Positions 1 through 55,761 of a stretch of 55,761 nucleotides of DNA are shown in pieces. This DNA comes from a virus (Duplodnaviria > Caudoviricetes): positions 1 through 55,761 of the IMG/VR virus record IMGVR_UViG_3300037424_001314; one strand, 5' to 3'. The notes under the pieces were generated by a model. It saw only the letters and a list, made by a program, of their open reading frames with translations, searched no databases and was not told the DNA's origin. Position numbers and translations under genes: made by a program. Position 1 is the first letter of the stretch; each line of letters starts with the position of its first letter.

Positions 1-123
1 GAAATTCTGAGTAGCCCCCTGGTACGCTATCACGTCACCGGACACTTCGGCGAGCACAGGGAAATTCTGAGTAGCCCCCTGGTACGCTCTCACGTCACCG
101 GCCTTGGCGAGCACAGGGAAATT
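1..123. repeat. Two near-identical ~57-60 bp tandem units encoding the protein repeat
   Basis: gaaattctgagtagccccctggtacgct... at 1 and 61; a third gaaatt begins at 118. Confidence 0.9.
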
Positions 124-237
124 GGCAGAGATATTTTCTGACACAACTAATTTGCCCGCCACTGAAACTAATTTCTGTAGTTTCGGATCATCGGCCTCTT
201 GCTGAGTTCTGATATACAAATCACCATGAATCTTCAT
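1..237 (-). CDS. Repeat protein with ~20-aa LRR/L-domain-like units, truncated by the window start
   Basis: Not in the ORF track. ATG at 237 with GGAGG upstream. Reads MKIHGDLYIR...NFPVLAKAGDVRAYQGATQNFPVLAEVSGDVIAYQGATQNF, open to base 1. Confidence 0.75.
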   Translation of the reverse strand, partial: MKIHGDLYIRTQQEADDPKLQKLVSVAGKLVVSENISANFPVLAKAGDVRAYQGATQNFPVLAEVSGDVIAYQGATQNF

Positions 238-1067: not shown

Positions 1068-1089
1068 TGTGTTCTCCTTGAATTCTCGT

Positions 1090-1240
1090 CGGCATCTCCC
1101 TGCGCCCGTGGGCTAACCGTTTTGCCCCGACTTCAGAGCGCGAACAACCTCGGCATCTCCCTGCGCCCGTGGGCTAACCTATTCTGCTTTGGCCGCGCCG
1201 TTGCTGGCAATCGGCATCTCCCTGCGCCCGTGGGCTAACC
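1090..1240 (-). CRISPR. Mini CRISPR array: 3 identical 29-nt repeats GGTTAGCCCACGGGCGCAGGGAGATGCCG and 2 unique 32-nt spacers
   Basis: Repeats at 1212-1240, 1151-1179 and 1090-1118, exact 61-nt period. Spacers ATTGCCAGCAACGGCGCGGCCAAAGCAGAATA and AGGTTGTTCGCGCTCTGAAGTCGGGGCAAAAC. Each repeat is followed by A, so 30+31 is also possible. Orientation inferred from the I-E-like 8-nt ...CCG handle. Confidence 0.88.
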
Positions 1241-1373
1241 TCTATGAAATCACGTTGGTTTTTCTTGAAAATGCCTTCCATGTATTAACCCACAGGTTTA
1301 AGAAGGTTGCAGTCAAAGCGTGCCCTAATGAGCTACTTTAGCGACTGCCCACTGTGCCTCAGTGGTTTAATTG
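1241..1373 (-). ncRNA. Putative tracrRNA/omegaRNA-like scaffold or structured leader
   Basis: Stems at 1349-1354/1360-1365, 1309-1314/1343-1348 and 1332-1342. Segments 1285-1296 and 1267-1275 are complementary to the repeat allowing G:U pairs. Confidence 0.55.
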
Positions 1374-2591
1374 TTAACCGAAAGCTCTTGCCTTGATGTT
1401 CATGGCGCTATTGAGCGTCCTATCCTTGACCATCCCGCAGGCAGGACATTCGTAAACGCGAACCTCTAGCGGAATCTCTTTCTGGGCCCCGCACTGGCTA
1501 CAGGTCATAGTTGTTTTGGGAGCGGGAACCTGAATAAACTCTCTCCCGTGATCCTCACATTGAGATTCAAGCCTGAAGTGGAATTGGCGCCAAGCAGCAT
1601 CGTGTATTTTTTTGGGTAGTTTGGGGTAATCTCCACCCTTAGACGCCATCCCCTTAATGTTCAACTTCTCGGCAGCGATACGGTCATATCGAGAAGCGTA
1701 TTCATGAGCAGTCTTGCAGATAAAATCCTGTCGTCTGTTGGCTATCTTCTCGTGTAGGCGAGCAACCTCTAGCCTGCATTGCTCGCGTCGTTTCGATCCC
1801 TTCTGTGCTCTCGACAGTTTCCGTTGTAGGACCCGTAGGCGTTTTTGCTCCTGCTCAAAGAATTTCGGATTCTCAGTCCTGTTCCCCTCTGAATCCATAG
1901 AGAAATGGGTTATTCCTACATCTATCCCCACTGTCTTGTTCGTGGGTTCAAGGGGATGTGTCGGGACGTCTTTGCAACTGAAGACTACAAACCATCTCCC
2001 CGAACGTTCCTTTTTTATTGTGGTGGTGCAAACCTGGAAATTTTCACCGTTTCGAGACGCCTGAGGAACCAGGTTGACGACGCTATTGATGGTAAGGAAT
2101 AACCGCCTGCTATCATACATTTTGAAACGGCCCACGTGATCGACTTCAATGTATTTGCCATTGATTCTCCAGCCAGATGAATTTGGGAATGTAAACGACG
2201 TGTAATATTGGTAACCCCGAAACTTCGGGAACCCAGAGGAGGCCCCCGCTCCAGACTTTGCTCTGCGAAAAAACGCTTTGAATGCTAGATCAAGACGTTT
2301 CAGTACGTCTTTAAGAACCTGAGAGCCCACCAAAGCGTATTCAGGAAATTCTTTCTTGAGTTCTACAAGTTGCTTTGCCTGGTCGTATTCGTTGACACCT
2401 CGTTTGGGCATATAGCCAGGTCCGTACGTTGTAGTGTCAACACAGTCCCGTTTCCCAAAGCCCTTGTTGTACGCATCTATCCTCTGCTCAAGAGCACAGT
2501 TATAGAGCCGCTGACAGAGAGAGAACCATTCGAGTGCTTTTGACTCTGTGTCTTTATTGATCGTGGCCCTGAACTTGAAAGTCCTTCTCAT
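1374..2591 (-). CDS. tnpB: TnpB/Cas12f-like RNA-guided protein with probably inactive RuvC-III
   Basis: IS605 OrfB-type N-terminus (TFKFR...LYNCAL), GFPKFR, RuvC-I GIDVG (D224), RuvC-II AAEKL (E308), zinc finger CSQC/CPAC, RuvC-III DRTLNSAMNI (T392 in place of D). No tnpA nearby. Confidence 0.92.
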   Translation of the reverse strand: MRRTFKFRATINKDTESKALEWFSLCQRLYNCALEQRIDAYNKGFGKRDCVDTTTYGPGYMPKRGVNEYDQAKQLVELKKEFPEYALVGSQVLKDVLKRLDLAFKAFFRRAKSGAGASSGFPKFRGYQYYTSFTFPNSSGWRINGKYIEVDHVGRFKMYDSRRLFLTINSVVNLVPQASRNGENFQVCTTTIKKERSGRWFVVFSCKDVPTHPLEPTNKTVGIDVGITHFSMDSEGNRTENPKFFEQEQKRLRVLQRKLSRAQKGSKRREQCRLEVARLHEKIANRRQDFICKTAHEYASRYDRIAAEKLNIKGMASKGGDYPKLPKKIHDAAWRQFHFRLESQCEDHGREFIQVPAPKTTMTCSQCGAQKEIPLEVRVYECPACGMVKDRTLNSAMNIKARAFG

Positions 2592-52462: not shown

Positions 52463-52683
52463 AGCGCTGTAAGATCTATTTCACAGGGATGAGCGGCGAG
52501 GTCTACACGGACACGATTGACGGGGACCACATCGCCGCAGAGCGCTATGTGCGGGACAATTTCTTGCATGGCATGTTCCACGGGACTAAACCAAGCGAAT
52601 TTGACGGTGCCCGCATCTGGGAGATAACCCCCGGCGCCGTCGAGAGCGTGTGTATCGAGGAATTCGAGGAGGAAGAGAGTTGA
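52459..52683 (+). CDS. Small hypothetical protein
   Basis: ATGA overlap; GAGG RBS. Confidence 0.55.
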   Translation: MKRCKIYFTGMSGEVYTDTIDGDHIAAERYVRDNFLHGMFHGTKPSEFDGARIWEITPGAVESVCIEEFEEEES

Positions 52684-53387
52684 GGAATCCTCGCAAAGCC
52701 AAAGATGTTGTTTCCACAAAGGACATTGTACGTAAAATCAGATCTTTACCGTTAAATTTAGCTGGGAAAATCATTGGAGATTTTCAATATCTCGAAAAGC
52801 GACCGAAGCCGTCTTTAGTCGCTGGAGATTTTGTGTGGATATGCCGCTGTATTAAGTGCGGAGAGATTACGCGCATAGATCGGTGGGAATTTATTTTTGG
52901 CATCCCGGGTCGATGTTTCAGTTGTATGCCTAAAAGAAAAAGGTGCGATGCTAAGAATGGCAGCAAGTCTCCCGAATATCAATGTTGGACTGCTATGAAA
53001 CAGCGTTGTCAGAACCCCAAAGACGACGCTTGGCCAAGATATGGCGGCAGGGGAATTACTGTCTGCGAAGCCTGGAATAGTTTTGAGCAGTTCGTTAAAG
53101 ATATGGGAAGTCGGCCAACAATGGATCATAGTGTTGAACGGGTTAACAACAATCTAGGATATTTCCCAGGAAATTGTAAATGGGCGACGAGGAAGGAACA
53201 GGGCAGAAATACTCGTCATAACAGGATTATACTGATTGGGTTTAGAGCTATGCCTATTTCTGCTTGGGCAGAACGACTCGGTATAAATTACGGCACCCTT
53301 TTTTCACGGATTAAACGATGGGGGATAACGCCAGCCCTTACTAAGCCAGTCAGGACGTATTCACGCGAGAAAGGGGAGTCCACATGA
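52650..53387 (+). CDS. Phage HNH-type (homing) endonuclease
   Basis: W..MKQRC.NP....RYGGRGITVC..W..F..F..DMG.RP...SVER.NN..GY.PGNCKWAT..EQ..N. Confidence 0.88.
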   Translation: MYRGIRGGRELRNPRKAKDVVSTKDIVRKIRSLPLNLAGKIIGDFQYLEKRPKPSLVAGDFVWICRCIKCGEITRIDRWEFIFGIPGRCFSCMPKRKRCDAKNGSKSPEYQCWTAMKQRCQNPKDDAWPRYGGRGITVCEAWNSFEQFVKDMGSRPTMDHSVERVNNNLGYFPGNCKWATRKEQGRNTRHNRIILIGFRAMPISAWAERLGINYGTLFSRIKRWGITPALTKPVRTYSREKGEST

Positions 53388-53617
53388 AACGTGCAACACT
53401 CATCAAAGAACTGCGCCGCGTAGCTGACGACATGGAGATCAGGCGGTCATATCCTGGGAAGAACAAGCCAAGCACGATCATACTGAAAATTTATTCTGCT
53501 CGCATCCCAGCTAAACTCATAGAAGAATTCCAGAAATTGCCTGGCGCGCAGAACCATAACCTTGAGCGCGCTATGCGGCTGTTCCTACTCGCCCACGGGG
53601 TAGATACATGCGAATAA
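53384..53617 (+). CDS. Small DNA-binding protein, ribbon-helix-helix-like
   Basis: YSARIPAKLIEEF...LERAMRLFL. Confidence 0.55.
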   Translation: MKRATLIKELRRVADDMEIRRSYPGKNKPSTIILKIYSARIPAKLIEEFQKLPGAQNHNLERAMRLFLLAHGVDTCE

Positions 53618-53807
53618 AATGATCAACCAGCTTTCAGACTGGATAGAAATTGCACACAGGCGCTTCTCTGTTACATCCCTGATATTCTTCCTAAAGTTGG
53701 GTTTTGGGTCAAATAGCCCCAAAATAGGGTGCGAAAGTTTTGATCATCATGGTTTTTGGGCTGTCATTATCTCTAATCCTTTCGCTGATATATCAGAGTA
53801 GAGGTTC

Positions 53808-53823
53808 TGGCACGCTTCTAGCA
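53808..53823 (+). promoter_or_regulatory. Sigma54 (-24/-12) promoter
   Basis: TGGCACG-CTTC-TAGCA with exact GG-N10-GC spacing; one mismatch to TGGCACGN4TTGCW. Confidence 0.7.
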
Positions 53824-53833
53824 TATATATTAG

Positions 53834-54351
53834 GTCAACACAGACGAAACGGCAAACGGCCTGCCGAGACACAAAATCGAGCCGACGGAACGGACCGGGA
53901 GACCGGTGGCCAAAGCAGTAAAATTCTGCATCCCCCAAAGCGGCGGCGAGGCAATCGACTGAAGACCCGAGCGCAGGGGGGCAACGAAACCGAACAACGC
54001 CGGTTGAGACGCCGGCCATAACATGACAGCAAGTGCAAGCCTCCCCGTGGCGCTGTCGGGTAACGCCAATTGCACACGGCCTTTGCGAGGTTGGGCCGTA
54101 ACCAACGATAGGGTCTGGGATACCTTACTCATCCGGTTACGCCGACGTTAACCTAAAACCGCAGTCGGGAGGGGGCCACAACTCAGAGTGGTGTCGGGTC
54201 GGTCCTGAACCAAGGTGGGGTGAAATTCCCCACCAATCAGGGCATGCTCCTATCAGGAAGCCTCCACGCGGCGGGAGCGGGTAACGCTAATTCCTGGAAT
54301 CTTCGGACTCGGGACCGGAACACCAACCCGAGCAGGAACGCCTGAGAAAGG
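53834..54351 (+). ncRNA. Putative large structured non-coding RNA (~520 nt)
   Basis: No credible ORF; more than 12 hairpins plus long-range complementarities; starts at the predicted sigma54 start site. Confidence 0.6.
54304..54351 (+). repeat. 48-bp direct repeat, copy 1 (two hairpins plus RBS)
   Basis: 47/48 identical to 55684-55731. Confidence 0.9.
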
Positions 54352-54353
54352 GA

Positions 54354-54806
54354 ATGATGAAACACACGCCAGTCGTAACTCCGTCTGAGATGCAAGGGAT
54401 GATCCCTGAACTTCCAATGGAAATTCTTTCTCCTGACACCGAATGGGAGGCTCGACTCCTGTGGAGTTCAGCACTTTCAGAGCTTCCAGTTCTCACCACA
54501 ACCGGGCTCGTTCATCATCAATTCAAACTTGGAGGAACATGGCACGAGGTTTTGGAGACAGGGAAAGTCAAAGCAGTCTTGTCGTGCGATTCTTTGGGAA
54601 TCAGAACCAACGCCCTGGACATTCAAACCCCCAGAGACGTTGTAGTTGAGGGGGAATTCATCCTCATAGATGGAGATCTACAGATCCGATGGGGAATTAT
54701 CCATAATCACCCACGGATTATTCTTAAATCTCATGCTTCGGGCATGGCGTTTGTTGGGGCCTACGGTGCTCATGCAGTTCAGTTCATGGCCGAAATCGAG
54801 GCATAG
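54354..54806 (+). CDS. Hypothetical protein
   Basis: 150 aa; RBS lies at the end of the repeat. Confidence 0.65.
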   Translation: MMKHTPVVTPSEMQGMIPELPMEILSPDTEWEARLLWSSALSELPVLTTTGLVHHQFKLGGTWHEVLETGKVKAVLSCDSLGIRTNALDIQTPRDVVVEGEFILIDGDLQIRWGIIHNHPRIILKSHASGMAFVGAYGAHAVQFMAEIEA

Positions 54807-54873
54807 CAATCACCAGACACCCGGAACCTGGTCATCAATGCCGGGCGCAATCCGATGCGGAGAGGAAAAGAGA

Positions 54874-55741
54874 ATGGCAAAATACGACATTACCTATTCA
54901 TGTGGACACGACGACCAGATCGCACTATTTGGTCCCACGAGAGATCGAGAGCGCAAGATTGAATGGTACGAATCTAAGGGGATGTGCGGGGAGTGCTATA
55001 AGAAACATCTCCAGGAACAGCGAGAACTCGCAAGCAAAGAAGCCGCCGATAAAGCGCACACTGCGGGGCTCCCCCCTCTCGCCGGCACGGAGAAGCAAAT
55101 CGCTTGGGCGGAAATAATAAGGGCAGAGAAATTGACAGCACTCAGAGATATCGAGCGCTTCCAGGATGACGTGTTGCCCGAAGAGGAGCCGCTATTTGAA
55201 GCGCTTCAGGCAATGTCTAGGCGAGTTCAGGCAATTTCCTGTGCAAAATGGTGGATTGATAATCGCGAGAGAAGTTTTCGCATCTATAATCTATGTCGTG
55301 AATTAGGGGTTAATCTAGCTAAAATAGCAGGTCAAGCCCCCCCCTCCCGGGGTACTTGCTGCCATTGATGCCGCGTTTCGTGAACATCAACCTATAGAGG
55401 CCCAACAATCTGAGGATAGGGTGTCTGAGATTGAAGCTCTTGCAGAAGCAACGATCCGGCCCGAACAGCCAAAAACCGAAACCGTCGCGGAGATCCGAGT
55501 CCTTGATAATGCGGTAGAGATTCTTTTCCCAGAGCGGAGAGAGGACTTTAGAGAGCTGGTGCGCTTCAAGCTTGGTTACACATGGACTGAGCCCTGCTGG
55601 AAACGTGAGCTGAAAAGTGTCAACGGTTCTCCAGCTGACAGGGCTGCTGAGGCTCACCTATGGGTGCTAAAATCCAGATTCTCCGGACTCGGGACCGGAA
55701 CAACAACCCGAGCAGGAACGCCTGAGAAAGGAACACGATGA
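54874..55741 (+). pseudogene. Phage hypothetical protein split by a frameshift in a C8 tract
   Basis: MAKYDITYSCGH...LAGTEKQIAWA...WWIDNR; deleting one C at 55337-55344 fuses it in frame with ORF 55421..55741. Confidence 0.6.
55684..55731 (+). repeat. 48-bp direct repeat, copy 2
   Basis: Followed by ATG at 55738 of an ORF cut by the window end. Confidence 0.9.
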
Positions 55742-55761
55742 AGACAACAGAATGTAGGGCG

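What the first reader, a model, noticed from the sequence alone, without database searches (positions are those of the whole stretch)
53808..54351. Sigma54-type promoter driving a ~520-nt densely structured non-coding RNA
Seen: a -24/-12 promoter, then a region with no credible ORF and many stems. Examples: ACCGG-GAGA-CCGGT (53894-53907), GTGCAA/TTGCAC (54033-38/54070-75), GTAACC/GGTTAC (54098-103/54135-40), and GGTGGGG-TGAAATT-CCCCACC (54214-54234) with a T-loop-like loop. Long-range pairs GACCCGA/TCGGGTC (53964-70/54194-200) and CCTCCC/GGGAGG (54040-45/54167-72) are possible, and CGGGTAACGC occurs twice. Known: phages carry large ornate RNAs such as GOLLD and ROOL. I cannot assign this one to a family. 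Inference: a possibly new large ncRNA class, under a promoter type needing a host activator.
Basis: partly seen in the sequence, partly recalled or inferred. Interest (0 to 1): 0.75.

Follow-up and report, generated by a model that had tools for sequence, protein, structure and literature searches.

The report
Two self-cleaving ribozymes in phage leader
The supposed single large structured RNA is better read as a non-coding phage leader that carries two small HDV-like self-cutting RNA elements, a known kind of ribozyme, which would chop the transcript into three pieces just before a gene.

Summary
The 524-nt stretch as a whole folds no better than shuffles (z -0.88), matches no Rfam family at gathering score, and has no relative in any collection searched.

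Two of the quoted features, the GTGCAA/TTGCAC pair and the twice-occurring CGGGTAACGC, belong to two P4-less ("minimal") HDV-like self-cleaving ribozymes. Rz1 is 54025-54075 and Rz2 is 54246-54297, both on the + strand.

- Their shared core pattern occurs twice in the window and 0 times in 100 shuffles.
- The same pattern retrieved 42 loci elsewhere.
- In 35 distinct copies, the unconstrained helices P1 and P2 show double compensatory changes at 11 of 12 pairs.

In other loci these ribozymes sit behind a hairpin. They lie in front of an SD-start or, in 3 loci, directly in front of a ROOL RNA.

Here the predicted cuts at 54024|54025 and 54245|54246 would give three products:
- a U-poor 5' piece;
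- a 221-nt ribozyme-headed RNA;
- the mRNA of gene 54354.

The sigma54-like motif is real as sequence but statistically unproven. Verdict: new members of a known ribozyme kind, not a new large ncRNA class. No cleavage or transcript data were available.

The parts
53808..53823 (+). sigma54-like -24/-12 motif TGGCACG-N4-TAGCA (candidate promoter, unproven)
   Evidence: One mismatch to TGGCAC-N5-TTGCW. The window has 3 such matches against 1.84 expected. It lies in the AT-rich stretch just before the composition switch at about 53833. No sigma54 or activator domain was found in the window.
53834..54024 (+). U-poor 5' leader piece (8% T), which would end at the Rz1 cut with a 2',3'-cyclic phosphate
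   Evidence: Composition. It is the lowest-T stretch of the whole window. Fold z is -1.83. There is no coding signal and no homolog.
53999..54016 (+). hairpin GCCGG / CCGGC, ending 8 nt before the Rz1 cut site
   Evidence: Sequence. Folds of the 40 nt upstream. The same hairpin-then-ribozyme layout is seen in 25 of 38 contexts.
54025..54075 (+). Rz1, a minimal HDV-like ribozyme. Predicted cut T54024|G54025. P1 54025-30/54052-57. P2 54033-38/54070-75. P3 54039-41/54049-51. L3 54042-48. P1.1 G54058-59 with C54043-44. Candidate catalytic C54066.
   Evidence: Weak Rfam HDV hits. Core pattern. Descriptor scans. Covariation. Model R2, built without window copies, scores it 68.1 bits, E 4.6e-18.
54076..54245 (+). 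170-nt inter-ribozyme non-coding RNA. With Rz1 attached it would be a 221-nt product, 54025-54245.
   Evidence: Fold z is -2.62, with 2 of 200 shuffles as stable. All three frames have stops and there is no SD-start. No homolog in the fetched loci. No tRNA. No Rfam hit at E <= 10 apart from the ribozyme cores.
54202..54243 (+). extended hairpin (GTCCTGA...TCAGGGC enclosing GGTGGGG-TGAAATT-CCCCACC), ending 2 nt before the Rz2 cut site
   Evidence: MFE and centroid structures.
54246..54297 (+). Rz2, a minimal HDV-like ribozyme. Predicted cut T54245|G54246. P1 54246-51/54273-78. P2 54253-59/54291-97. P3 54260-62/54270-72. L3 54263-69. P1.1 G54279-80 with C54264-65. Candidate catalytic C54287.
   Evidence: Model R2 scores it 59.1 bits, E 2e-15.
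54298..54353 (+). 56-nt leader with two small hairpins (CTCGGG...CCCGAG and CAGG-AACG-CCTG) and the SD GAGAAAGG before ATG 54354
   Evidence: Direct repeat D1. Alignment. Fold. 9% T.
54354..54806 (+). first gene behind the ribozymes (150 aa, no family assigned)
   Evidence: ORF. Codon-usage score +0.156 in frame. No Pfam or PHROG hit. No relative in IMG/VR.
55666..55731 (+). second copy of the leader, before ATG 55738. It keeps the GCTAA plus P2-3'-like start but lacks the ribozyme core.
   Evidence: Repeat at 88% over 66 nt. Alignment. No ribozyme hit there.

Best explanation
The non-coding stretch is the long leader of a rightward operon of a tailed phage. It contains two tandem P4-less (minimal) HDV-like self-cleaving ribozymes.

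Inferred from the family's known chemistry: each ribozyme folds into the nested double pseudoknot as it is transcribed and cuts at its own 5' edge, at 54024|54025 and 54245|54246. The upstream RNA is left with a 2',3'-cyclic phosphate just behind a hairpin. The downstream RNA is left with a 5'-OH and the compact ribozyme as its 5' cap.

The transcript would thus be split into three products:
1. A U-poor 5' piece.
2. A 221-nt ribozyme-headed, hairpin-ended non-coding RNA.
3. The mRNA of gene 54354, beginning with Rz2 plus a 56-nt leader.

The likely purpose (inferred) is host-RNase-independent separation and end-protection of transcript units. This would uncouple the downstream message from the leader.

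Shown here: sequence and fold membership, covariation, and the recurrent genomic context. Not shown: cleavage itself, the transcript, and its start.
For: Weak but position-specific independent hits.
- Rfam HDV models hit exactly these two places: RF00094 19.4 bits, RF02682 19.1 and 17.2 bits.

Shared core and non-random occurrence.
- Both copies share GCCTCCNCGNGGC-N6-GGGTAACGC. This occurs twice in the window and 0 times in 100 shuffles with up to 3 mismatches.

Compensatory changes between the two window copies.
- P1 is GACAGC/GCTGTC in one and GCTCCT/GGGAGC in the other.
- P2 is GTGCAA/TTGCAC in one and CAGGAA/TTCCTG in the other.
- Both are preceded by CAT|.

Relatives elsewhere.
- The pattern found 1 IMG/VR locus, 37 metagenome loci and 4 genome loci.
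- In 35 distinct copies, 92.9% of cells pair, against 36-45% when partners are slid.
- 5 of 6 P1 pairs and 6 of 6 P2 pairs show changes on both sides.
- The first P1 pair is G-U in 17 copies and G-C in 15.
- P1's 5' strand and P2 lay outside the search pattern, and P1's 3' strand fell on its unspecified N6 positions.

Model and scan results.
- A model built from the 33 non-window copies scores the window copies at 68.1 and 59.1 bits. The next best window hit scores 9.4 bits.
- A looser descriptor gave 0 hits in shuffled loci.

Context in 38 distinct contexts.
- The upstream 40 nt are more stable than controls, -10.9 against -7.0 kcal/mol, Wilcoxon p 7.7e-5, n = 37.
- 25 of 38 have a hairpin of at least 5 bp ending 8 nt or less before the cut.
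- 22 of 38 have an SD-start within 120 nt.
- Multi-copy loci bracket small genes one by one.

The window fits this layout, with a hairpin before each cut and an SD-ATG 56 nt after Rz2.

The literature describes minimal drzs lacking P4 in Caudoviricetes, and many non-tRNA copies in non-coding regions, sense to the nearest ORF (PMC10879173, Introduction and Results read).
Against: - Neither copy reaches an Rfam gathering score: 19.4 against 50, and 19.1/17.2 against 44. There were none at gathering score at all.
- P3, L3, P1.1 and the candidate catalytic C are invariant in the alignment only because the search pattern fixed them. Their conservation is by construction.
- 3 of 41 pattern matches had no 6-bp P1 by my parse, and 5-6 of the 35 aligned copies are unpaired at most P2 positions.
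- No RNA data exist for this phage.
- No relative of this particular locus was found, so nothing outside the two ribozymes can be tested by covariation.
- Plain MFE folding does not show the ribozyme fold, because pseudoknots are not modelled, and it offers competing pairings.
- A 5'-OH end can mark RNA for RNase J1 decay in some hosts (recalled). The stabilising role is therefore an inference, and the host is unknown.
Confidence: 0.8

Rival explanations
1. The point of the pair of ribozymes is the RNA between them. Rz1 and Rz2 together release a discrete 221-nt non-coding RNA (54025-54245) that acts on its own, as a phage small RNA or, after ligation of its 5'-OH and cyclic-phosphate ends, as a circle. 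This does not exclude the best explanation. It adds a product with its own function.
For: - The 170-nt body is more stable than shuffles: z -2.62, with 2 of 200 shuffles as stable.
- It has no SD-start, and all frames contain stops.
- It ends in a long hairpin 2 nt before the second cut.
- The same ribozyme class directly heads full-length ROOL RNAs in L063, L065 and L070. This shows that phages do place these ribozymes in front of non-coding RNAs.
Against: - No homolog of the body was found in any fetched locus, so there is no covariation to test.
- No Rfam hit.
- No antisense target of 15 nt or more in the window.
- In other tandem loci the bracketed unit is usually a small gene, so this cassette could be a decayed one.
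- The ends are not paired with each other in the predicted fold.
Confidence: 0.2
2. One reading: one ~520-nt ornate RNA of a new class, comparable to GOLLD or ROOL, driven by a sigma54 promoter.
For: - A long non-coding stretch containing many local stems.
- A sigma54-like motif 26 nt before a sharp composition switch.
- The sub-pieces fold somewhat better than shuffles, z -1.83 and -2.62.
Against: - The whole-region fold has z -0.88.
- No Rfam match in the window at gathering score and none to ROOL or GOLLD in 53300-55761 at E <= 10, although the ROOL model readily found 3 ROOLs in other loci.
- Two internal self-cleaving ribozymes would cut it into three pieces.
- Both proposed long-range pairs either span a cut site or use the ribozyme core.
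- No homologs were found.
Confidence: 0.05
3. Part of the stretch is protein-coding. Candidates are the minus-strand ORF 53747-54019 (90 aa, present in the protein collection as this contig's own gene call) or 53830-54132 (100 aa), or the plus-strand ORF 53740-54021 (93 aa, with a hydrophobic N-terminus and a basic tail).
For: - The ORFs exist.
- The 90-aa one is in the protein collection as the window's own protein.
- The plus-strand ORF stops 3 nt before the Rz1 cut.
- The minus-strand ORFs score about +0.05 bits/codon in frame.
Against: - No PHROG hit for any of the 8 overlapping ORFs.
- No homolog for 53740-54021.
- Only itself for 53747-54019.
- Only 2 weak multi-stretch hits, to 949- and 1391-aa proteins, for 53830-54132.
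- With 8% T, a stop-free frame is expected: 2816 of 5000 shuffles have one.
- The T-poor part scores -0.25 bits/codon in frame.
- The 100-aa minus-strand ORF would run antisense through Rz1.
Confidence: 0.07
4. The ribozymes are inactive relics. They would be sequence copies spread by duplication, with no present cleavage or role.
For: - The leader repeat at 55666-55731 keeps only the 3' edge of a ribozyme and has lost the core. Decay of such units therefore does happen in this phage.
Against: - Both copies keep every core position and perfect 6-bp P1 and P2 helices despite different helix sequences. Drift would not preserve this.
Confidence: 0.08

Closest known systems
Minimal HDV-like ribozymes / theta ribozymes of Caudoviricetes phages (Kienbeck et al. 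2024, PMC10879173; the 2014 metagenomic drz-Mtgn work is known to me only through that paper's citation)
   Same: - Nested double pseudoknot with P1, P2, P3 and P1.1.
- No P4 domain.
- C followed by NAA in J4/2.
- Found in a tailed-phage genome, in a non-coding region, sense to the neighbouring genes.
- The paper reports 526 non-tRNA copies of unknown function in annotated databases.
   Different: - No tRNA lies at either cut site. The named subgroup function, tRNA 3' processing, does not apply.
- The run holding the window's DNA is labelled a sediment metagenome, whereas over 80% of the published copies come from gut phages.
- Here two copies bracket a 170-nt non-coding RNA.
- I could not compare with the published descriptor or lists, because supplements are closed.
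HDV ribozyme and drz-Fpra-1 (Rfam RF00094, RF02682)
   Same: - The core is almost letter for letter the model consensus around P3/L3 (GCCUCC.CG.GGCG), as printed.
- G at +1, and a G-U or G-C first pair.
   Different: - P4 (34 model positions) is replaced by about 4 nt.
- Scores are far below gathering.
Hammerhead and twister ribozymes proposed to process bacterial and phage polycistronic transcripts (review PMC6765202, passages read)
   Same: - Same proposed job: cutting operon transcripts into units with different stability or translation.
- Same tendency to occur near phage genes and near each other. Twister-P5 and Hammerhead_II occur in the same loci as this ribozyme class.
   Different: - A different fold and a different cut geometry. 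HDV-like ribozymes stay wholly on the downstream product.
ROOL and GOLLD large ornate phage RNAs
   Same: - Phage-borne non-coding RNA near other small RNAs.
- In L063, L065 and L070 a ribozyme of the window's class sits 10-15 nt before a full ROOL.
   Different: - The window has no ROOL or GOLLD match at gathering score, nor at E <= 10 in 53300-55761.
- The unit between the ribozymes is 170 nt, not about 580 nt.
- It has no known relatives.
Synthetic ribozyme insulators such as RiboJ (recalled from memory, no call)
   Same: - A self-cleaving ribozyme plus hairpin placed between promoter or leader and the RBS, to give a defined 5' end that is independent of upstream sequence.
   Different: - These are engineered, hammerhead-based and leave a different end structure.
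- This is an analogy for function only.

Membership tests
HDV-like (delta-like) self-cleaving ribozymes | P1 and P2 helices forming a nested double pseudoknot, supported by covariation | tested here: met
   Both window copies have 6-bp P1 and 6-7-bp P2 helices. In 35 copies, 11 of 12 P1/P2 pairs have double changes. 92.9% of cells pair, against 36-45% when partners are slid.
HDV-like (delta-like) self-cleaving ribozymes | 3-bp P3 with an L3 whose two Cs pair with two Gs after P1 (P1.1) | tested here: met
   GCC/GGC, with L3 TCCCCGT and TCCACGC, and GG at 54058-59 and 54279-80. These positions are invariant in all 35 copies, but the search pattern fixed them, so there is no covariation evidence.
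HDV-like (delta-like) self-cleaving ribozymes | G at +1 closing P1 with U or C; the cut lies immediately 5' of it | tested here: met
   G54025 and G54246. The first pair is G-U in 17, G-C in 15, A-U in 2 and other in 1, out of 35 copies. The cut position itself is inferred, not measured.
HDV-like (delta-like) self-cleaving ribozymes | catalytic cytosine at the first position of J4/2 | tested here: inconclusive
   C54066 and C54287 sit in the sequence C-N-A-A immediately before the P2 3' strand. Their conservation is by construction of the pattern, and their catalytic role was not assayed.
HDV-like (delta-like) self-cleaving ribozymes | P4 helix | tested here: not met
   Only GTAACG lies between P1.1 and the candidate catalytic C. 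This is the defining trait of the 'minimal' subclass, which lacks P4 (PMC10879173, Introduction). It therefore narrows the membership and does not exclude it.
HDV-like (delta-like) self-cleaving ribozymes | score at or above the Rfam gathering threshold (RF00094, RF02682) | tested here: not met
   19.4 against 50 bits; 19.1 and 17.2 against 44 bits. 0 hits at gathering.
HDV-like (delta-like) self-cleaving ribozymes | Mg2+-dependent self-scission, abolished by C-to-U at the catalytic C | not testable with these tools
   This needs in vitro transcription assays.
Theta ribozymes, tRNA-associated subgroup | cut site within 5 nt of a tRNA 3' end | tested here: not met
   ARAGORN finds 0 tRNAs in the window and 0 in 53600-54399 at a relaxed threshold.
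Theta ribozymes (motif) | match to the published RNArobo descriptor | not testable with these tools
   The descriptor is in a figure and in Supplementary Fig. 6. Supplements are closed.
ROOL / GOLLD large ornate RNAs | match to the family covariance model | tested here: not met
   No hit in the window at gathering and none at E <= 10 in 53300-55761. The same ROOL model scored 298-312 bits in L063, L065 and L070.
sigma54-dependent promoter | -24 GG and -12 GC elements with fixed spacing | tested here: met
   TGGCACGCTTCTAGCA at 53808-53823, one mismatch.
sigma54-dependent promoter | occurrence beyond chance; an activator (bEBP) and its upstream sites; a mapped start | tested here: inconclusive
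   3 matches against 1.84 expected. No Sigma54_activat or Sigma54_DBD domain in the window, which CheckV rates 46% complete. The host is unknown and there are no RNA data.

The most novel reading that the evidence does not exclude
Rz1 and Rz2 work as a pair to excise a discrete ~221-nt RNA (54025-54245). It would have a ribozyme-folded 5'-OH end and a hairpin-protected 2',3'-cyclic-phosphate end.

This would be a ribozyme-delimited phage non-coding RNA of a so far unknown family. Its ends would make it a substrate for end-joining into a circle.

It would parallel the way the same ribozyme class heads ROOL RNAs in other phages. It would mean that minimal HDV-like ribozymes are a general phage device for cutting out non-coding RNAs as well as messages.
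Probability: 0.15. Interest if true: 0.7.

Novelty: new member of a known kind. Interest (0 to 1): 0.42.

Why it matters
The published survey leaves the function of minimal HDV-like ribozymes that are not next to tRNAs open (PMC10879173, Results).

This locus and the 42 related loci fetched here show a recurrent layout: gene stop or RNA end, then a hairpin, then the cut site and ribozyme, then an SD-start or a ROOL RNA. That layout suggests a simple, testable role. The phage would cut its own long transcripts into end-protected units without host RNases.

If confirmed, this would explain many orphan ribozymes. It would give a defined 5' end for ROOL RNAs. It would also offer compact natural insulator parts.

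For this window specifically, the result replaces a claim of a new large RNA class with two assignable ribozymes plus one small orphan RNA.

Tried and rejected
Searches that came back empty
- Rfam at gathering score on the whole window: 0 hits.
- blastn of 53600-54400 against the phage collection: no match.
- Relatives of the 150-aa and 77-aa neighbouring proteins in IMG/VR: none.
- 50 loci with relatives of the next gene (phrog_16123-like): 0 of 50 carry the ribozyme, and none resembles the leader.
- Leader hairpin pattern in IMG/VR: 0 hits.
- Sequencing runs: one DNA run listed and no RNA holder listed.

Ideas tested and dropped
- tRNA or tRNA-like reading of the T-loop-like hairpin: ARAGORN found 0, also at a relaxed threshold. 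The mitochondrial mode gave 17 calls on both strands of 800 nt, which I treat as noise.
- Antisense targets of the two non-coding pieces inside the window: nothing longer than 14 nt.
- A third ribozyme before the second leader copy: none.
- A sigma70-type promoter on the + strand in 53600-54353: none listed.
- Coding readings of overlapping ORFs.
- A 17-nt ROOL 5' motif scan in IMG/VR: 20 loci returned, of which only L100 holds a ROOL start. I treat the other 19 as chance matches.

Literature
- Literature searches and the passages read turned up no description of a hairpin-ribozyme-SD layout, and none of an HDV-like ribozyme in front of ROOL.
- The supplementary lists of PMC10879173 were not visible to me and may contain relatives.
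Full report
**Setting.** The window is a linear virus record of 55,761 bases that CheckV rates 46% complete. It encodes a tape measure protein, a portal-like protein, an integrase and a TnpB-like transposase, so it is a tailed phage. Around the finding the genes run rightward:
- an HNH endonuclease, 52650-53387 (PHROG 3377, E 2e-46);
- a 77-aa ORF, 53384-53617;
- possibly a 60-aa ORF, 53619-53801, with a weak coding signal of +0.05 bits/codon in frame against about -0.5 out of frame;
- a gap up to ATG 54354;
- a 150-aa gene with no assigned family, then a phrog_16123-like gene.

**The observation.** As a whole the region is not unusually structured. The + strand of 53830-54353 folds at -194.5 kcal/mol against -188.3 for shuffles, z -0.88, and 19 of 100 shuffles fold as well. 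The minus strand gives z -0.36. Rfam finds nothing at gathering score in the whole window. The -24/-12 motif is a one-mismatch match with correct spacing, but three such matches occur in the window against 1.84 expected.

**What is there.** A permissive Rfam scan gave weak hits of HDV ribozyme models at exactly two places, 54022-54090 and 54246-54297 (17-19 bits, E 1.7-9.4). Read against the HDV fold, both places fit completely. In order they have:
- CAU, then the cut site, then G;
- a 6-bp P1;
- one or two linker bases;
- a 6-7-bp P2 5' strand;
- P3 GCC/GGC around L3 UCCNCGN;
- the P1 3' strand;
- GG for P1.1;
- a short GUAACG in place of P4;
- C-N-A-A;
- the P2 3' strand.

The two copies share the core but differ in P1 (GACAGC/GCTGTC against GCTCCT/GGGAGC) and in P2 (GTGCAA/TTGCAC against CAGGAA/TTCCTG). 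The twice-occurring CGGGTAACGC is the end of P1 plus P1.1 plus the P4 substitute. The core pattern occurs twice in the window and never in 100 shuffles even with three mismatches.

**Relatives and covariation.** The same pattern found 1 locus in IMG/VR, 37 in metagenome contigs and 4 in 185,579 species genomes. I aligned the 35 distinct copies found in the window, in the IMG/VR locus and in the metagenome loci, including those my parser could not fit.
- The named structure pairs in 92.9% of cells, against 36-45% when partners are slid by 1-3 columns.
- 5 of 6 P1 pairs and all 6 P2 pairs show changes on both sides.
- The first P1 pair is G-U in 17 copies and G-C in 15.

The caveat is that P3, L3, P1.1 and the candidate catalytic C were fixed by the search pattern, so their invariance says nothing. 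P1's 5' strand and P2 lay outside the pattern, and P1's 3' strand fell on its unspecified N6 positions. A covariance model built only from the 33 non-window copies scores the window copies at 68.1 and 59.1 bits (E 4.6e-18 and 2e-15). Its next best window hit scores 9.4 bits. A looser hand-written descriptor gave no hit in shuffled loci. I conclude that these are two minimal (P4-less) HDV-like ribozymes. This is the class described in Caudoviricetes phages by Kienbeck et al. 2024 (PMC10879173; Introduction, Results, Discussion and one Methods section read). Cleavage itself was not and could not be tested here.

**Context of the class.** Counts are over 38 distinct contexts. Three further pattern matches (L064, L077, L093) were dropped because no 6-bp P1 was found.
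- The 40 nt before the cut fold more stably than control windows further upstream: -10.9 against -7.0 kcal/mol, Wilcoxon p 7.7e-5, n = 37.
- 25 of 38 have a hairpin of at least 5 bp ending 8 nt or less before the cut.
- 22 of 38 have an SD-like word and a start codon within 120 nt downstream.
- In an earlier count on 35 contexts, an upstream open frame of 50 or more codons stops within 50 nt of the cut in 20 of 35.

Loci with several copies bracket small genes one after another, in the order stop, hairpin, cut, ribozyme, SD, ATG. L084 has three copies, and L085 and L087 have two each. In L084 the stretch between the second and third copy holds only a three-codon ORF behind a strong SD.

The same set of 40 loci also holds Twister-P5 and type II hammerhead ribozymes, many tRNAs and a tmRNA. 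In L063, L065 and L070 a full-length ROOL RNA (298-312 bits) starts 10-15 nt after the ribozyme on the same strand. That is 3 of the 3 ROOLs found. L100 shows a P4-bearing HDV-like ribozyme before a ROOL start cut off by the locus end. These ROOLs resemble each other, so they may represent few independent lineages.

**How the window's locus most likely works.** Each ribozyme is preceded by a hairpin. GCCGG/CCGGC (53999-54016) ends 8 nt before the first cut. An extended hairpin (54202-54243) ends 2 nt before the second cut. From the known chemistry of the family (inferred here), cleavage leaves a 2',3'-cyclic phosphate on the upstream RNA and a 5'-OH on the downstream RNA, which keeps the whole ribozyme. 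A transcript through the region would therefore give three products:
1. A 5' piece ending at 54024.
2. A 221-nt RNA, 54025-54245, made of Rz1 plus a 170-nt body.
3. The message of gene 54354, headed by Rz2 and a 56-nt leader with two small hairpins and the SD.

The leader recurs at 55666-55731 before the next start codon. The repeat is 88% identical over 66 nt, and nearly identical over its last 50 nt or so. It begins inside the 3' edge of the ribozyme, but that second copy has lost the ribozyme core. I read the ribozymes as devices that separate and end-protect transcript units without host nucleases. The review literature has suggested this idea for hammerhead and twister ribozymes but has not settled it (PMC6765202, passages read).

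**The pieces that remain unexplained.**
- *The 5' piece.* The stretch 53834-54024 has only 8% T and is the most T-poor part of the whole window. The switch from 41% GC and 33% T happens at about 53833, which is where a sigma54 start would fall. The T-poverty makes stop-free frames likely: 2816 of 5000 shuffles have one. The piece also has no coding signal, at -0.25 bits/codon in frame.
- *The 170-nt body.* It folds better than shuffles, z -2.62. It has stops in all frames and no tRNA. It has no relative among the fetched loci. A six-codon ORF (GTG 54187) lies 11-14 nt behind GGGAGGGGG, which I regard as weak.
- *Overlapping ORFs.* None has support. There are no PHROG hits. There is no homolog for 53740-54021. 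The minus-strand 90-aa ORF is in the protein collection only as this contig's own call. The 100-aa minus-strand ORF gives two weak multi-stretch hits to proteins of 949 and 1391 aa.

**The promoter.** The motif is well placed but statistically ordinary. No sigma54 or activator domain is encoded in the half-genome at hand. The host is unknown, and no run on record as RNA was listed among the holders. I put the sigma54 reading at about 0.3. Read-through from the upstream genes, or another promoter in the AT-rich 53680-53833, are alternatives. The consensus scan listed no sigma70-like site on the + strand there.

**Comparison and novelty.** The two elements are new members of a known kind. They are not tRNA-associated theta ribozymes, since that defining adjacency was tested and not met. 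Compared with what I could read, three things are new:
- the tandem arrangement around a short orphan RNA;
- the hairpin-ribozyme-SD layout as a general context;
- the ribozyme in front of ROOL.

Literature searches and the passages read did not show any of these in print. The claim of a new large ncRNA class is not supported.

Noticed in passing
window 1089-1241 and 1374-2591 (-): Three 31-nt direct repeats with a 61-nt period, that is, two unique spacers of about 30 nt. On the minus strand they lie 133-285 nt downstream of a 405-aa TnpB-like protein (Pfam OrfB_IS605 1.3e-26, Cas12f1-like TNB 1.3e-17). This looks like a mini CRISPR-like array beside a TnpB in a phage. The array has no match in the phage collection, and the repeat has no notable fold.
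   Followed up: partly
L063:737-1394(-), L065:880-1546(-), L070:45-706(-), L100 near 1-210(-): A minimal HDV-like ribozyme of the window's class lies 10-15 nt upstream of a full-length ROOL RNA (298-312 bits) in 3 of the 3 ROOL loci found. A P4-bearing HDV-like ribozyme precedes a fourth ROOL, which is truncated. The papers searched do not mention this.
   Followed up: partly
window 53829-54060: The most T-poor stretch of the + strand in the whole window: 6.7% T in 120 nt against a mean of 23%. It begins sharply at about 53833. The 56-nt leader 54298-54353 is also 9% T. Cause unknown.
   Followed up: partly
window 54286-54351 and 55666-55731: A leader module is repeated before two successive start codons. 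It has two hairpins plus the SD GAGAAAGG. The second copy retains only the 3' edge of a ribozyme. It could be a binding site for a translational regulator.
   Followed up: partly
window 1-120: A 60-nt tandem repeat, two copies at 98% identity, at the very start of the contig. It is cut off by the contig end.
   Followed up: no
L005 about 2225-2290(-), and L072, L089, L057: Other ribozyme classes occur in the same phage fragments. These are a hammerhead-like CTGATGAG...CGAAAC motif seen by eye in L005 (not reported by Rfam there), Twister-P5 in L072 and L089 (twice), and Hammerhead_II in L057. L005 also repeats a GTCCGAATAATGGAC hairpin before several genes.
   Followed up: partly
ribozyme cores, e.g. 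window 54040-54044 and 54261-54265: The conserved P3/L3 core contains CCUCC, the anti-Shine-Dalgarno word. A possible link between ribozyme folding and SD exposure was not tested.
   Followed up: no
window 53619-53801: A 60-aa ORF directly after the 77-aa gene shows a weak coding-like codon signal: +0.05 in frame against about -0.5 out of frame. It has no Pfam or PHROG hit. If real, the non-coding leader starts at about 53802, just before the sigma54-like motif.
   Followed up: partly
window 54874-55368 and 55421-55741: The phrog_16123-like gene matches only positions 2-142 of a 368-position profile. The next ORF is conserved at DNA level next to homologs of that gene in L017, L010/L011 and L024. 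The two ORFs may be parts of one longer gene in relatives.
   Followed up: no
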